Positions 14,382 to 51,010 of a stretch of 64,000 bases of DNA are shown here, piece by piece. Location: the NCBI RefSeq assembly GCF_009914755.1, contig NC_060926.1; one strand, given 5' to 3'. Within the stretch, counting starts at the first letter, position 1. The number at the start of each line of letters is the position of its first letter. The notes below the pieces were generated by a model that saw only the letters and a list, made by a program, of their open reading frames with translations, had not been told where the DNA came from and made no database searches. Position numbers and translations under genes: made by a program. Origin of the DNA: the human T2T-CHM13v2.0 reference genome, Homo sapiens.

Positions 14382-17039
14382 CTGAAAAGTAACCCCAAAA
14401 GAAAAGATAAAAATCATAAATGCATTCCTGTCAACTGATCAACTTAAAGGATTCAGAAATCAGTTCTGCCAATTATGAAAACTGAGAAAAGCCATCAAAA
14501 CTCATTTTTTGATCTGGAAAGTCATTATTTAAATATCTTTCTTCCAGGTTACTGTAAAGATGAAATGAAATCATATTAATATATGCAAACATCTAGAACA
14601 GTGCCTGGGCTCCTAAGGACTGATTTTAATGGTAGTTTCCTTCCCTCTCCTACTTCTGTAACGACATAGATTACATCACATCTTTGGTAGAAAAAGAAAC
14701 TTTAGGCATATCCACAATATACCAAGTCTCAAAGGATCAACCCAATATCAGTCAAATGTTAGAACTAAGCAAACATTTATTTACAGTCCACCTACAGTAA
14801 ACTATCTAACAATTCTATGGCAGAGACAAGTAGCTACTCTGGAAAATCTTTTTTCTCCTCTTTCTACTGAACCCACAGCCAGACTACATACATACGTCTG
14901 CCTCCTTTGAAGTTAGGTGTGACCCTTTGACAGAGTTAATTATAAATGGAAGTCACTGTCATCACTTCCAGGACCAGTCCAGTCCTACCCCTGCTCCTCC
15001 AGGCTCTTTGCCCCTTCCACCTGACTGGAATGCAGTCAACCAACGGCAAGCTTTGAACCGAAGACAAAAGATCCTCCATCAACCTGGGTTCCTGAATAAC
15101 TGTGTGGCCTGTTTATCTGCTAAGCCCTGTTATGTAAACAAGACAGACATTTTTATTGTGTTTGAGCCATTGTATCTTTTGAGGCCTTTCTATTACAATA
15201 GTGAGCCTATCTTTTAACTAGTACAACTACATCAAAGCAGTTTTCTGCAAGTTGCTCTTCTTCAATTTCCCCTGGCATAATCTTTGCTGCCCCAGCTACT
15301 TCACATGGGCATTGACCATCAACTAATAAACTGTAACTCTATAAATGGCAATGGCTATTTTCCTATGCTGAAAAACTTACATATTTATCAACTCACTCAC
15401 CTAAACAGAGTTGATTTCTATATAAAAACTAAACATAGGTAGCAATAAAGTGATTTTTAAAACCGAATGTTATTGAGAGAGAAGATTTGCTTGTGAAGCA
15501 TTCAAATAAAAAACAGCCCAACTCATATATATTATAAAAAACCTGGTAGTAACAGTGAAATCAAAGCAACAAATATAACAGTAACTATCTAACCTAAAAC
15601 TTCAACCAAAATGTAACACACACAAAGTCCCACAGTCAAAAAGAATGTCCCTGCTATAATTATCAGATTCATAAGGCCTGGAGTTATGAGAAAGTAGAAA
15701 CTGCCTGATAAGGATGGCTCTTTGTGCCATACATGGATCTGTTTAATCTTCACTCTTTCAATGTGTCTCAGGTTAGCCAACCCTGTTATATGCTCCTATG
15801 GACCCTTACCCTTCATCTATCATAACACATGTATCAAATATTATTTATTTGTTTCCCTCAAGACAGTCAATTCCAGAGGAACAATCTGTTTTGTTTGGGG
15901 TATATGTGAGAAACCTGGCATCATGCCTGGCCCACAGCAGGGATTCAATATTTATCTAATGAAAAAAAGAGCAGCCCAAAAGCCACAAAAAGTTAACCCC
16001 AAATGCAACTGTTCCTACAATGTACAGTCCAGTGCACTCATGTAACACATCAGCAAATTAAAGAAAGCACAAAGAAATGCCAAAAATTGTGTAACGAGTC
16101 ATTGGCAGAAATTCTGTACTCCACCACATTATATATGTGAAAACAAAAAGAATAAATCTGAACAAAGCAAAATGAAAACCATTTGCCAATGAGGACCATT
16201 TCATCCTAAGCTTTGACTATGAGGACAAAAGATAGCAAGGGTTTAACCACGCAGTCCTATAAATAAATGGCAAAGCAACTTGGCCTCAAGAATTGATTTC
16301 CTTATTCCTTCCTTTATAATTATCATGCAATAAGTAAGTCAAAGAGCCATGTCCTTCTTTGCAAAGGAAAAAATGGGTAGGTGCTCAGTCCTCCCCAAAA
16401 CATGGAAACGCGAGGGGGCATAGGTTCTCTGCCAGAGACTAGGACACAACAATCTGTACTCATCAACAAGTTCCAAGGACAATGATACACAAAACTACAG
16501 AAAGCTGACATGCTTTTTCATAATGTAGAAATCCAGTTTCTATGAGGCTTAATCTTTTCACATGTAATAAAGAACAGAAAAATTGGGGATAATGTCACTT
16601 GGATACAATTGTTTAAAATCAGAAAAGAAGTCCAGGAGCCATGGTTCACACCTGTAATCCTAGCACTTTGGGAGGCCAAGGTGGGAGGATCACTTGAGCT
16701 CAGGAGTTTGAAACCAGCATAGCCCACATGGCAAAACCCCGTCTCTACTAAAAATACAGAAATTAGCCAGGCGTGGAAGTGCATGCCTGTAATCCCAGCT
16801 ACTCGGGAGGCTGAGGCACAAGAATCGCTCCAACTTAGGAGGCAGAGGTTGTAGTGAGCCAGGATAGCGCCACTGCATTCCAGCCTAGATGACAGAGCAA
16901 AACCCCGTCTTAAAAAAGGAAAGAAAAGAAAAGAAAATTGTCCCTATTTTCCCATAAGATTTTTCTCAAGGAAATTGCAGACAGCAATTCCTTCATGTGC
17001 TGAAATAGACACAAACTCTTAAAAACAGTATCTCACTCA

Positions 17040-44662: not shown

Positions 44663-44791
44663 TATTTTATTTTATTTTATTTTTTTCTTATGTTGGACTG
44701 GTAACAGGCAGACCTTACCAGGTTTGAGAAAGGCTCATCCCACACATGAGTGTGAAAATCCAATCATCATGCTTATGAACTGCAAACAGAT
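44663..44791 (-). pseudogene. U13 snoRNA (SNORD13) retrocopy
   Basis: Minus strand ATCTGTTTGCAGTTCATAAGCATGATGATTGGATTTTCACACTCATGTGTG..TTACCAGTCCAACA plus an A-rich tail. TSD ctttgttatt at 44657-44666 and 44796-44805. Confidence 0.85.
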
Positions 44792-48181: not shown

Positions 48182-48310
48182 ATTGCTTCTACCCAAGATC
48201 AAGGGTAGTATCTGTGCTTATTATGTAATATCTGACACATCCACTTCCTGAGAACAAAATAATAAGTGGGTTTTAGGAGCAGAAGAACAGTGCTCCAGGT
48301 AACTGATGAC
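48182..48310 (+). pseudogene. Second, decayed U2 snRNA copy with internal deletions
   Basis: ATTGCTTCT..AAGATCAAGGGTAGTATCTGTGCTTAT..TAATATCTGACACATCC..GAGAACAA..TGGGTTTTAGGAGCAG..CAGTGCTCCAGG follows U2 order, with part of stem I and most of stem III missing. Confidence 0.75.
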
Positions 48311-48539
48311 TCCAGTATGGCTCTATCCCTCATGCCCTCCGTTTTAATATGAAACCTGCCTTTTTCCCTTTTATTTATTTATTTATTTTTTACTTTTATT
48401 TTTTGAGGCGGAGTCTCCCTTTGTCACCCTGGCTGGAGTGCAGTGGTGGATCTCTGCTCACTGCACCCTCTGCCTCCAGGGCTTAAGTGTTTCTCCTGCC
48501 TCAGCCTCCGGTGTAACTGGGATTACAGGCCGGGTGTAA

Positions 48540-49082
<543 letters not shown>

Positions 49083-49918
49083 TAATTTCTGTATTTTTAG
49101 TAGAGACAGGGTTTCACCATGTTGGCCAGGCTAGTCTCAAACGCCTGACCTCAGGCGATCTGCCCGACTCGGCCTCCCAAAGTGCTGGGATTACAGGCGT
49201 GAGCCACCACGCCCGGCCTCCTTTTTATCTTTGTTATTTTTTGAGACAGGGTCTTGCTTTGTCATCCAGGCTGGAGTGCAGTGGCACAATCATGGCTCCT
49301 TGACCTCCTGGATTCATGCGATCCTCCCACTTCAGCTTCTTGGGTAGCTGGGACTACAGGCATGAGCCACCATGCCTAGCTAATTAAAAACATTTTTTTT
49401 TTGGTAGAGTGCCAGGTGCAGTGGCTCATACCTGTAATCCCAGCACTTTGGGGTTGGGGGTGAGGATCGCTTGATCCCAAAGCCCAAATCCCAGGAGTCT
49501 GAGACTAGTCTGGGTAACGCGGGGGAAACACCCCTCTCTACCAAACAAAAACAAAAACCATATATACATATGAAAACAAAAAAATACACACTAGCCCGTT
49601 GTTATGGCACGTGTCTGCTGAGAGGCTGATGTGGATGTTCGAACCCAGGAGTCCAAAGATGCAGTGAGTAAGCCAGGATCGCACTATCTCAAAAGACTGA
49701 GTCTCGCCATATTTGCTCAGGCTGATCTTGAACTCGTGGGCTCAAGCCATTTTCTTTCAAAAAGAGCTGGGATTGCGTGTGTCAGCCACCTCGTTTTGGA
49801 AAATTTAATCAAAGTTGTAGACCCCTGTTTCTTAAACTGCTAGCATACCTGTTTTTTCTTTTTTAGCCATATTGCTGTGAAGTTGGAAACAACCTTCTGA
49901 TGTTTCCAAAATTACAAA

Positions 49919-49932
49919 CCTGTTTTTGTCAC
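49919..49932 (-). terminator. snRNA 3'-box-like element GTGACAAAAACAGG
   Basis: Resembles GTTT-N-AAAAACAGA-type 3' boxes and lies just past the end of U2 homology. Confidence 0.45.
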
Positions 49933-49938
49933 TAATGG

Positions 49939-50093
49939 CGATGCGTAGACTAGATAGAGTAAACTCTTACTCCAACTCCCAGTTCCAAAACTGCGTTTAA
50001 TATAGCGTTCATCAAACAGGAGAACATACCAGATATTAAACTGATAAGAACACACACTACACTCAATCATTAACCAAACAGCAAAAAAGAGAT
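49939..50093 (-). ncRNA. RNU2-63P: Diverged U2 snRNA variant or pseudogene with its own snRNA promoter
   Basis: Minus strand ATCTCTTTTTTGCTGTTTGGTTAATGATTGAGTGTAGTGTGTGTTCTTATCAGTTTAATATCTGGTA...ACGCATCG aligns to U2 nt 1 to about 152. No poly(A) tail or TSD seen. The symbol is from recall of the KRCC1 neighbourhood and is tentative. Confidence 0.85.
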
Positions 50094-50134
50094 ACCAGTT
50101 ACACGGGGCCTCCCACGTCCTCCCTTCTTTCATC

Positions 50135-50153
50135 CACCTTAAGGTCACGGTGA
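50135..50153 (-). promoter_or_regulatory. snRNA proximal sequence element (PSE) TCACCGTGACCTTAAGGTG
   Basis: Starts exactly 60 nt upstream of the U2-like +1 (50093). Same spacing and similar sequence to the human U2 PSE (TCACCGCGACTTGAATGTG), including the GATGA that follows. Confidence 0.85.
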
Positions 50154-50269
50154 GAAACCTCACCTTCGGTAAACATCTCACCTGCTTTCTGATGTAAATA
50201 TTATATTGAAAACATAGGCCCTTTGAGACATTTTGTCCGCTCCTTGACTCTTAGTGACTCGAGCTTTGT

Positions 50270-51010
50270 CGCCCCTTTTCCTTGGTCGCGAGGGCCGTTC
50301 ATTTGCATGTCCCACCCGCTCTGCGCCCGGGAGGCGTGGCCACCAAGGGACCGGGCCCTGCACAGCGCCCTGGGGAAGCTGGTTTGAAAGCTCTGGAGCG
50401 ACCCCAATGCCGGGTAAAGGACAAGATTTGCCCAGACGGAAGGGAATTTGGGGTGAAGTGGCCGTAAAAGTGTGGGACGAAACTGTTTCGGGCAGAGCGG
50501 TGGGAACTCACCTGAGGAAAGCATGGGGGAGGAGTCACTAATAAGAATGAGTGGCAGGGACAGGGCGGCCTTGCAACGCCCTCGGTGTTGGAAGGGAAGA
50601 CCGTACAGCGCGATGGGGACCAGGGCGGCGGGCCGCAGCCAGGGTGTGGGTGGGCGACGGTCAAGGTGCCTTGAAGCGGATTCTGTCCTCGGGAGCTGCG
50701 GTTCTTCCTCCTCCGCCCTCACCGGCGGGCGACCTTAGGCAGGGCGTGAAATGCAACGGGAGCCCTGGAGGGAGGGTGAAGCCGCGCGTGCAGGAGGAAC
50801 CTCCTTTTGGCGAGTTCAGGCCCCGCAGCTGCGGAGGTAGGGGACCCTGTGTGGCAGCCTGCTGAGAGGCTGCGTGCTCCGCGCGGTTGGAGGGGGGAAC
50901 CTCCAGCCCACCTCCTCTTTTTCAGCCGAGAAACCGCTAGTTACCCCCTTTCTTATGCGACCAAGATTGTAATAACCCTGTCACCTTTCACGGCCCTCCG
51001 GGTCTGCGCC
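50270..51010. promoter_or_regulatory. CpG island / GC-rich promoter region
   Basis: Dense CpG and high GC in non-repeat sequence. Strong minus-strand splice donors after 50512 (cag|gtgagt) and 50182 (cag|gtgaga). Confidence 0.75.
50301..50319 (-). promoter_or_regulatory. snRNA distal sequence element: Sp1-type GT box plus octamer ATGCAAAT
   Basis: Minus strand GCGGGTGGGACATGCAAAT, with the octamer at -215 to -208 from the U2-like start. Confidence 0.8.

What the first reader, a model, noticed from the sequence alone, without database searches (positions are those of the whole stretch)
49939..50093. U2 variant keeps its stems by compensatory changes but alters functional motifs and lacks stem-loop IV
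Seen against recalled U2: stem IIb GTCC/GGAC becomes GTTC/GAAC and inner stem III GGAG/CTCC becomes AGAG/CTCT (both compensatory). Stem IIa is retained with a U-G wobble and its loop TTTAATAT is invariant. However, the branch-point recognition sequence GTAGTA becomes GTAGTG, the Sm site ATTTTTG becomes AGTTTTG, and homology stops at about nt 152, removing stem-loop IV (the U2A'/U2B'' site), with a 3'-box-like motif right there. Inference: a shortened structured RNA of about 145-150 nt that could have altered branch-site specificity or a non-spliceosomal role. Two compensatory transitions are suggestive only and could arise by chance.
Basis: partly seen in the sequence, partly recalled or inferred. 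Interest (0 to 1): 0.7.

Follow-up and report, generated by a model that had tools for sequence, protein, structure and literature searches.

The report
Known U2 variant gene, truncated allele
This is the already described human U2-like gene RNU2-63P, and its missing last hairpin is a roughly 39-base deletion carried by this particular genome assembly rather than a property of the gene.

Summary
Window 49939-50093 (-) is the T2T-CHM13 copy of RNU2-63P ("U2-63"). It is not a retro-pseudogene. It keeps an RNU2-1-like proximal element (20 of 24 bases, at -61) and an exact octamer at -215, and it is single-copy.

Its substitutions spare base pairs more than chance predicts, but only modestly. Of 30 pairs, 28 are kept, with 3 double compensations; P is 0.005-0.14 depending on the null.

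Almost all of this is in print: Pol II occupancy, compensatory changes, the altered branch-point and Sm sequences, a short half-life, TUT4/7 and NEXT sensitivity, and low-level entry into spliceosomes.

The loss of stem-loop IV is allele-specific. In GRCh38 the gene spans 194 nt, and gnomAD reference alleles spell a near-canonical stem-loop IV. The window has 155 nt and no trace of that loop.

The missing stretch (n.156-194) coincides with the 37-nt "variant-depleted" region n.153-189 reported in 2026.

Verdict: a known transcribed variant snRNA gene, here as a further crippled deletion allele. The idea of a dedicated short RNA is not supported.

The parts
50301..50308 (-). Octamer (ATGCAAAT) of the distal sequence element, at -215 from the U2-like start, preceded by a GGGTGGG box
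   Evidence: RNU2-1 has the same octamer at -221. Of the 49 U2 loci examined, only the 9 chr17 array copies and this locus have an exact octamer near -220. The function of the octamer in snRNA genes is recalled knowledge.
50131..50154 (-). Proximal sequence element (PSE) of an snRNA-type Pol II promoter, -61 to -38
   Evidence: It matches the RNU2-1 PSE at 20 of 24 bases at exactly the same distance. Flanking stretches compared without gaps match at only 15/37, 9/39 and 15/40. A RefSeq 'enhancer' 50116-50264 overlaps it (hub table).
49939..50093 (-). U2-like body, n.1-155: stem-loops I, IIa, IIb and III, the altered branch-point sequence, the altered Sm site, and the 5' strand of the basal helix of stem-loop IV
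   Evidence: It is collinear with GRCh38 88016393-88016547: 14 of 16 checked sites carry the reference allele and 2 carry the alternative allele.
49938..49939 (.). Deletion junction: about 39 bp present in GRCh38 (n.156-194, the rest of stem-loop IV and the 3' end) are absent here
   Evidence: The gene spans 194 nt in GRCh38 against 155 nt annotated here. The reference alleles of three gnomAD deletions show the missing sequence. The stem-loop IV loop motif has 0 matches in the 64-kb window at up to 2 mismatches.
49896..49919 (-). Degenerate 3'-box-like element. GTTT lies 19 nt after the junction, the same spacing as GTTT after the RNU2-1 3' end
   Evidence: It does not fit the recalled consensus GTTT N0-3 AAA R NN AGA exactly. 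The only exact match in the window is unrelated, at 16611.
49883..49909 (-). Perfect 9-bp inverted repeat (arms 49901-49909 and 49883-49891) overlapping the 3'-box-like element; role unknown
   Evidence: The fold of the 81-nt stretch is not better than shuffles (z -0.73).
50185..50413 (+). First exon(s) of the divergent lncRNA LOC105374852, starting between the PSE and the octamer and running away from the snRNA gene into a GC-rich stretch
   Evidence: Hub gene table. GC is 58-69% over 50200-50900. That this is a by-product of an active bidirectional promoter is inference.

Best explanation
The locus is RNU2-63P (U2-63), an old, single-copy, DNA-level duplicate of a U2 snRNA gene. It kept its own snRNA-type Pol II promoter (octamer at -215, PSE at -61) and a degenerate 3' box.

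Published work shows that it is transcribed. It makes a U2 variant at roughly 0.1-1% of total U2, and that variant is the least stable U2 variant measured. It is removed by snRNA quality control: TUT4/7, which fits its deviant Sm site, and the NEXT-exosome. A small fraction reaches snRNPs and spliceosomes.

The copy in this assembly (CHM13) additionally lacks about 39 bp (n.156-194). That is stem-loop IV, the U2A'/U2B'' binding hairpin, which is present in GRCh38. The 3' box survives, now 19 nt past the junction.

I infer that this allele still fires. It would be cut near the box to give a precursor of about 160-170 nt with stem-loop III as its last hairpin. It would be even less able to form a stable U2 snRNP than the full-length variant, which makes it effectively a hypomorphic or null allele.

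Shown here: identity, promoter homology, single-copy status, substitution pattern and the deletion. Shown in print: transcription, instability and quality control. Inferred: the fate of the truncated RNA.
For: - Identity and truncation.
- Promoter: of 49 U2 loci in this genome, an RNU2-1-like PSE at -61 occurs only in the 9 array copies, in L012, in L020 and here. The exact octamer is at -215.
- Single copy: the only full-length match among 40 scored places is the locus itself.
- Deletion: GRCh38 coordinates 88016354-88016547 come from two independent supplements. The reference alleles spell stem-loop IV. Collinearity was verified at 16 sites. The stem-loop IV loop is absent from the window.
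- 3' flank: it aligns with the RNU2-1 3' flank, with GTTT at equal spacing.
- Kosmyna 2020 bioRxiv (sections and passages read): Pol II, H3K27ac and H3K4me3 at U2-63; 42 differences, mostly conservative or compensatory; 0.1-1% of U2; falls on PRMT5 or MEP50 knock-down.
- Ma 2025/2026 (passages and two sections): rises on TUT4/7 depletion; carries an Sm-site variation; is the main U2 variant bound to SNRNP200 and PRPF8 after NEXT depletion.
- PMC11027413 (passages): read-through at this gene after RBM22 or SPT5 loss.
- Mutation asymmetry on the RNA-like strand: C>T 13 of 33 versus G>A 5 of 34, P=0.03. This fits long-term transcription.
Against: - No RNA data exist for the truncated allele, so its instability is inference. 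From memory, old Xenopus oocyte work found the U2-specific protein-binding 3' hairpins partly dispensable for splicing, so a form without stem-loop IV need not be inert.
- Structure-sparing substitutions (P 0.005-0.03 in three of my tests) and the published variant depletion over stem-loop IV hint that the full-length RNA is under selection. That would make 'mostly waste' too dismissive.
- I could not see GRCh38 sequence below 88016354, so the exact left edge of the deletion is unknown.
- None of the three deletions listed is identical to the CHM13 junction.
- The frequency of the allele is unknown.
Confidence: 0.8

Rival explanations
1. Full-length U2-63 is a selected, functional variant snRNA, for example a U2 with a shifted branch-site preference or a tissue-specific role. 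On this view the CHM13 allele is a natural loss-of-function deletion of its most constrained part.
For: - 8 of 10 touched pairs in stems I-III stay paired, against 42% in 36 promoter-less pseudogenes.
- Adding stem-loop IV, read by eye, gives 10 of 12 pairs with 4 double compensations (Fisher P=0.005).
- A 23-nt run without change covers stem IIa (P=0.045).
- The PSE matches at 20/24 while the neighbouring flank matches at 9/39 and 15/37.
- The medRxiv 2026 preprint calls the gene 'gene-like' (combined probability 0.955) and reports a 37-nt depleted region, n.153-189.
- My count gives 30 SNVs in those 37 positions against 58 in the next 37.
Against: - Substitution density is the same in paired bases (13 of 60) and unpaired bases (23 of 94).
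- One null gives P=0.14.
- A 23% one-lineage decay leaves an 8-mer intact about 12% of the time, so promoter retention alone proves little.
- The RNA is the least stable U2 variant and a quality-control substrate.
- Common alternative alleles sit in the body at n.74 and n.113.
- All tests are post hoc and no orthologues could be examined.
Confidence: 0.3
2. One reading: the gene encodes a dedicated short structured RNA of about 145-150 nt, lacking stem-loop IV by design, with new branch-site specificity or a non-spliceosomal role.
For: In this window the U2 homology does end at nt 153-154 with a 3'-box-like element 19 nt beyond. The Sm site followed by a single hairpin resembles the minimal layout of other Sm-class snRNAs (recalled).
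Against: - The reference human allele has stem-loop IV. By eye it differs from canonical U2 at 4 positions within the hairpin proper (6 of the 39 nt compared), and both touched pairs are kept.
- Kosmyna 2020 describes stem-loop IV as maintained.
- The fold of the 155-nt RNA is no better than shuffles (z -0.64; 43 of 200 shuffles fold at least as well).
Confidence: 0.04
3. The deletion is not a germline human allele but an assembly error or a change that arose in the CHM13 cell line.
For: Hairpin-forming sequence is prone to deletion. gnomAD lists three different rare 37-39-bp deletions of the same hairpin, with allele counts of 3, 27 and 131. This shows the site is fragile and perhaps hard to call.
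Against: The assembly is a finished telomere-to-telomere one (hub note). The junction is clean, and the flanks are collinear with GRCh38 at 16 of 16 mapped sites. The same haplotype carries the two commonest alternative alleles, as a real non-reference haplotype would.
Confidence: 0.08
4. The locus is a dead pseudogene decaying neutrally. On this view the promoter boxes survive by chance, or because they serve the divergent lncRNA or enhancer.
For: The body is 23% diverged, and the Sm site, branch-point sequence and 3' box are all off consensus. The thermodynamic fold is unremarkable.
Against: Published Pol II, nascent-RNA and RT-qPCR data show transcription and a detectable RNA. gnomAD hypermutability is typical of active snRNA genes. 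The pairing statistics lean against neutrality.
Confidence: 0.1

Closest known systems
RNU2-63P / U2-63 as described for GRCh38 (Kosmyna 2020 bioRxiv; Mabin 2021 RNA; Ma 2026 Genes Dev; medRxiv 2026 PMC13640761)
   Same: It is the same locus. Coordinates map base for base from n.1 to n.155. The branch-point and Sm changes and the compensatory pairs in stems IIb and III are the same.
   Different: This assembly lacks n.156-194 (stem-loop IV). It carries the alternative alleles at n.74 and n.113. I found no mention of the deletion allele in the passages and supplements I read. The only search aimed at it was 'RNU2-63P' (8 papers hold the term, 6 were listed, and I opened 3 of those).
RNU2-1 (chr17 array) canonical U2 snRNA gene
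   Same: The gene layout is the same: octamer near -220, PSE at -61, U2 body, and GTTT about 19 nt after the end. Stems I-III are conserved.
   Different: The body is 76.6% identical. The locus is single-copy rather than a tandem array. The Sm site, branch-point sequence and 3' box are altered. Stem-loop IV is missing here. The flanks outside the PSE are diverged to near-random identity.
RNU2-2 (chr11), a former 'pseudogene' now recognised as a functional U2 gene
   Same: It is a solitary U2 gene away from the array with its own promoter. Like this locus, it was once labelled a pseudogene.
   Different: RNU2-2 differs from U2-1 at 4 of 154 positions here and is abundant. Its PSE is unlike that of RNU2-1 (13 of 24). 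RNU2-63P is far more diverged and unstable.
Variant U1 genes (RNVU1-x) and other transcribed snRNA 'pseudogenes' culled by NEXT-exosome and TUT4/7
   Same: These are transcribed from intact snRNA promoters, have deviant 3' boxes and protein-binding sites, are degraded rapidly, and enter spliceosomes when quality control is lifted.
   Different: They belong to a different snRNA class. The variant U1 genes are clustered and numerous, whereas this is the one U2 variant that dominates its class in those assays.
3'-truncated U2 pseudogenes and expressed truncated U2 variants (U2-13P, -16P, -41P, -42P in Mabin 2021)
   Same: They share U2 5' domains and lack the 3' hairpins.
   Different: Those diverge after stem-loop IIa. 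This allele keeps stems IIb and III plus the Sm site, has U2 promoter homology upstream, and its truncation is a polymorphic deletion of a full-length gene.

Membership tests
U2 spliceosomal RNA (Rfam RF00004) | Covariance-model score above the curated gathering score | tested here: met
   68.2 bits against 46, E 3e-12. Canonical copies in the same genome score 193-197 bits.
U2 spliceosomal RNA (Rfam RF00004) | Stem-loops I, IIa, IIb and III | tested here: met
   28 of the 30 standard pairs of canonical U2 are kept. There are 2 broken pairs and 1 bulge in stem IIb.
U2 spliceosomal RNA (Rfam RF00004) | Invariant branch-point recognition hexamer GUAGUA | tested here: not met
   The last base is G (38 A>G). 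The same holds in GRCh38 (reference allele) and is noted in Mabin 2021.
U2 spliceosomal RNA (Rfam RF00004) | Canonical Sm site (A U-run G) | tested here: not met
   G replaces the first U (100 T>G). Ma et al. list this gene among variants with Sm-site variation that rise on TUT4/7 depletion.
U2 spliceosomal RNA (Rfam RF00004) | Stem-loop IV with the U2A'/U2B'' binding loop | tested here: not met
   It is absent in this window. It is present in the GRCh38 allele, read by eye from the reference alleles.
Functional Pol II snRNA gene | PSE near -55 and an octamer-containing distal element near -220 | tested here: met
   20 of 24 identity to the RNU2-1 PSE at -61, and an exact octamer at -215. The roles of these boxes are recalled knowledge.
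Functional Pol II snRNA gene | 3' box 9-19 nt downstream of the RNA end | tested here: inconclusive
   GTTT is at the right spacing and aligns with the RNU2-1 box, but the rest deviates. There is no exact match to the recalled consensus.
Functional Pol II snRNA gene | Stable, TMG-capped, Sm-bound RNA that acts in splicing | not testable with these tools
   The literature shows low abundance, a short half-life, and low-level presence in snRNPs and spliceosomes. There are no data for the truncated allele.
RNA-mediated (retro) U2 pseudogene | No homology to the U2 gene upstream of +1; A-rich tail and target-site repeats | tested here: not met
   Promoter homology is present. In contrast, 36 other U2 copies reach at most 13 of 24 in the PSE test. 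Target-site repeats were not sought.

The most novel reading that the evidence does not exclude
The deletion that removes stem-loop IV is a segregating human allele of a U2 variant gene whose stem-loop IV is the second-largest 'variant-depleted' stretch reported among snRNA genes. Two readings follow.

(a) The depletion reflects real constraint. CHM13 is then a natural knockout of a functional variant U2, relevant to the recessive candidates now being reported.

(b) The deletion haplotype is frequent enough to create the depletion signal as an artefact.

A bolder version: the short RNA, with an Sm site followed by a single terminal hairpin, is stable and acts as a U2 5'-domain decoy.
Probability: 0.12. 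Interest if true: 0.55.

Novelty: already known. Interest (0 to 1): 0.25.

Why it matters
The gene, its transcription, its compensatory changes, its altered motifs and its instability are all published, so the finding as stated adds little.

What may be useful is the allele. The telomere-to-telomere reference carries a form of RNU2-63P without stem-loop IV, and it is annotated there as a 155-nt gene.

The deleted stretch is also the one a 2026 rare-disease study singled out as strongly variant-depleted. The frequency and carriers of the deletion therefore bear directly on whether that signal means constraint.

Tried and rejected
- **Bacterial promoter/terminator scan.** It does not apply to a human Pol II snRNA gene, and I ignored its 0 promoter-like and 3 terminator-like hits.
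- **Thermodynamic folding.** The 155-nt RNA (z -0.64), the 214-nt stretch (z -1.40) and the 81-nt 3' region (z -0.73) are no better than shuffles, so folding energy gives no support either way.
- **Hidden or diverged stem-loop IV downstream.** In the MAFFT alignment I counted by eye only about 11 of 29 identities there. The loop motif has 0 matches in the window. I rejected this idea in favour of a deletion.
- **Segmental-duplication paralogue.** None was found; the only full-length match is the locus itself.
- **Retro-pseudogene origin.** Rejected because of the promoter homology.
- **The second U2 hit at 48182-48331.** It is closer to canonical U2 (111 of 147) than to RNU2-63P (91 of 141), so it is an independent decayed copy and not part of this gene.
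It could not be run because no vertebrate genomes other than the window's own are held.
- **A phrase search of the supplement for the depleted-region row.** It found nothing, so I read the table itself.

Full report
**What is in the sequence**

Read on the minus strand, window 50093 to 49939 is a U2-like sequence. Rfam's U2 model matches 49936-50093 at 68.2 bits (gathering score 46, E 3e-12). The 36 model positions of stem-loop IV are skipped with nothing inserted.

For a reference I used U2 genes from the window's own genome, not a remembered sequence. A whole-genome search returned 48 U2 matches, including the chr17 array (L001-L004 and L006-L010 among the loci) and the chr11 gene (L005).

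Against L001 the window copy has 36 substitutions in 154 aligned positions (76.6% identity; 25 transitions, 11 transversions) and three inserted bases.
- 38 A>G in the branch-point hexamer;
- 100 T>G in the Sm site;
- 64 A>G, making a U-G wobble in stem IIa, with positions 41-63 untouched;
- 70/82 C-G to U-A in stem IIb;
- 124/135 G-C to A-U in stem III.

**Is the pairing pattern more than chance?**

It is, but only modestly.

I simulated the same substitution types at random positions. This keeps a mean of 24.3 of 30 pairs, against 28 observed (P=0.028). If the 13 stem substitutions are only reshuffled within stems, P=0.14. Three or more double compensations occur with P=0.095 or 0.043 under the two nulls.

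As an empirical null I used 36 U2 copies from the same genome that lack the promoter. I excluded the 9 array copies plus L005, L012 and L020. In those 36 copies, 98 of 266 touched pairs stay paired when gaps count as breaks (Fisher P=0.008 against 8 of 10 here). With gap cells set aside the figure is 98 of 232 (P=0.021).

Two results count against selection. Substitution density is the same in paired bases (13 of 60) and unpaired bases (23 of 94). Folding energy is unremarkable (z -0.64).

All these tests are post hoc, because the locus was flagged for this very pattern.

**It is a gene copy with a promoter, not a retro-copy**

Upstream, a 24-nt box at -61 matches the RNU2-1 proximal element at 20 of 24 bases at the identical distance. 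An exact octamer sits at -215, against -221 in RNU2-1.

Of the 49 loci examined, such a box occurs only in the 9 array copies, in L012 (22/24), in L020 (22/24) and here. The other 37 reach at most 13/24.

Flanking stretches compared without gaps are near random: 15/37, 9/39 and 15/40. The duplication is therefore old.

The locus is single-copy.

After the end of U2 homology, the flank aligns with the RNU2-1 3' flank, and GTTT begins 19 nt on in both. The rest of the box is degenerate.

The roles of the PSE, the octamer and the 3' box are established knowledge that I recall. I did not test them here.

**What is already published**

The name RNU2-63P occurs in 8 papers of the library, of which 6 were listed.

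- **Kosmyna et al., 2020 bioRxiv** (sections 8 and passages read). They report Pol II, H3K27ac and H3K4me3 at "U2-63" and 42 differences from U2-1 that "maintain secondary structure". The level is 0.1-1% of total U2, and it falls on PRMT5 or MEP50 knock-down. They state that stem-loop IV is maintained.
- **Mabin et al., 2021** (passages). They find U2-63P to be the least stable yet one of the most abundant U2 variants. It is present in snRNPs and spliceosomes and has a single branch-point-sequence change.
- **Ma et al., bioRxiv 2025 / Genes Dev 2026** (two sections and passages). It rises on TUT4/7 depletion and has an Sm-site variation. It is the main U2 variant on SNRNP200 and PRPF8 after NEXT depletion.
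- **PMC11027413** (passages). It uses the gene as an example of Pol II read-through after RBM22 or SPT5 loss.
- **A 2026 medRxiv preprint** (passages and supplement). It calls the gene "gene-like" (combined probability 0.955) and reports a 37-nt variant-depleted region.

**The missing hairpin is an allele**

Two supplements place the gene at GRCh38 chr2:88016354-88016547, which is 194 nt. The window's annotation is 155 nt.

The gnomAD variant list in the first supplement includes three 37-39-bp deletions, with allele counts of 3, 27 and 131. Their reference alleles, read on the RNA strand, continue from the exact point where the window breaks off into a stem-loop IV.

By eye against L001, that stretch differs from canonical U2 at 6 of 39 positions. 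One further compensated pair (C-G to U-A) and one wobble occur in the upper stem, and there is a single change at the last loop position.

With an offset of 87,966,454, 16 of 16 checked sites map. Fourteen carry the reference allele. Two carry the alternative allele, and those are the two commonest (n.74 and n.113).

The canonical loop motif, which the GRCh38 allele contains unchanged, has no match at up to 2 mismatches anywhere in the 64-kb window.

Hence CHM13 lacks about 39 bp (n.156-194). I cannot fix the left edge, because GRCh38 sequence below 88016354 was not available. None of the three listed deletions gives exactly the CHM13 junction. A deletion anchored one base below the gene start would not appear in that table.

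**A coincidence worth noting**

The preprint's depleted region is n.153-189, essentially the deleted stretch.

My count gives 30 distinct SNVs in those 37 positions against 58 in the next 37.

There are three possible explanations: constraint on stem-loop IV, a fall-off of transcription-linked mutation near gene ends (the authors note such a fall-off themselves), or an effect of deletion carriers. This cannot be settled without the allele's frequency.

**Mechanism**

Shown: the promoter boxes and a published record of transcription and of quality control.

Inferred for this allele, in order:
1. Transcription starts at 50093.
2. Cleavage occurs near the degenerate box at 49896-49919.
3. This gives a precursor of about 160-170 nt ending after stem-loop III.
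4. There is no U2A'/U2B'' site and the Sm site is weak, so decay should be at least as fast as for the full-length variant.

**Verdict**

This is a known transcribed variant snRNA gene, seen here as a deletion allele. The idea of a purpose-built short RNA is not supported.

Noticed in passing
window 48182-48331 (+): A second, decayed U2 pseudogene lies 1.6 kb away on the other strand. Rfam U2 scores 37.4 bits, below the gathering score of 46. Stem-loops I and III are largely deleted. It is 111/147 identical to canonical U2 but only 91/141 identical to RNU2-63P, so it is an independent copy. It is not in the hub's gene table.
   Followed up: partly
window 44691-44791 (-): The annotated U13 snoRNA copy (Rfam snoU13, 63.8 bits) is followed directly by an A-rich (AAAATAAAAT...) tail. 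I saw no PSE-like box in the 300 nt upstream. It looks like a retro-copy rather than a gene.
   Followed up: partly
window 50185-50900 (+): The lncRNA LOC105374852 starts between the PSE and the octamer of the snRNA promoter and runs the other way into a stretch of 58-69% GC. This is the layout of a divergent transcript from an active bidirectional promoter.
   Followed up: no
window 49939-50093 (-): Substitutions relative to canonical U2 are strand-asymmetric on the RNA-like strand: C>T 13 of 33 against G>A 5 of 34 (P=0.03), and A>G 6 of 38 against T>C 1 of 49 (P=0.04). Transcription-coupled mutation over a long time would produce this pattern.
   Followed up: partly
window 49981 and 50020: This assembly carries the alternative alleles of the two commonest gnomAD SNVs of the gene: n.113 (allele count 137,881) and n.74 (108,660). 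At n.74 the window's C matches canonical U2 and restores a C-G pair where GRCh38 has a U-G wobble.
   Followed up: partly
window 49883-49909 (-): A perfect 9-bp inverted repeat with a 9-nt loop overlaps the 3'-box-like element just downstream of the gene. Its role is unknown.
   Followed up: partly
L020 (G000:C3:73152507-73152697): A chr3 U2 copy, 92% identical in its body, keeps the RNU2-1-type PSE (22/24) and about 90% identical upstream flank, but has no exact octamer within 350 bp. It is a younger DNA-level duplicate of the array unit.
   Followed up: no
GRCh38 chr2:88016354-88016394 (supplement of PMC13640761): Three different rare 37-39-bp deletions of the same hairpin are listed in gnomAD (allele counts 3, 27 and 131), besides the CHM13 junction. 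Either stem-loop IV is a recurrent deletion hotspot, or one deletion is being called in several ways.
   Followed up: no
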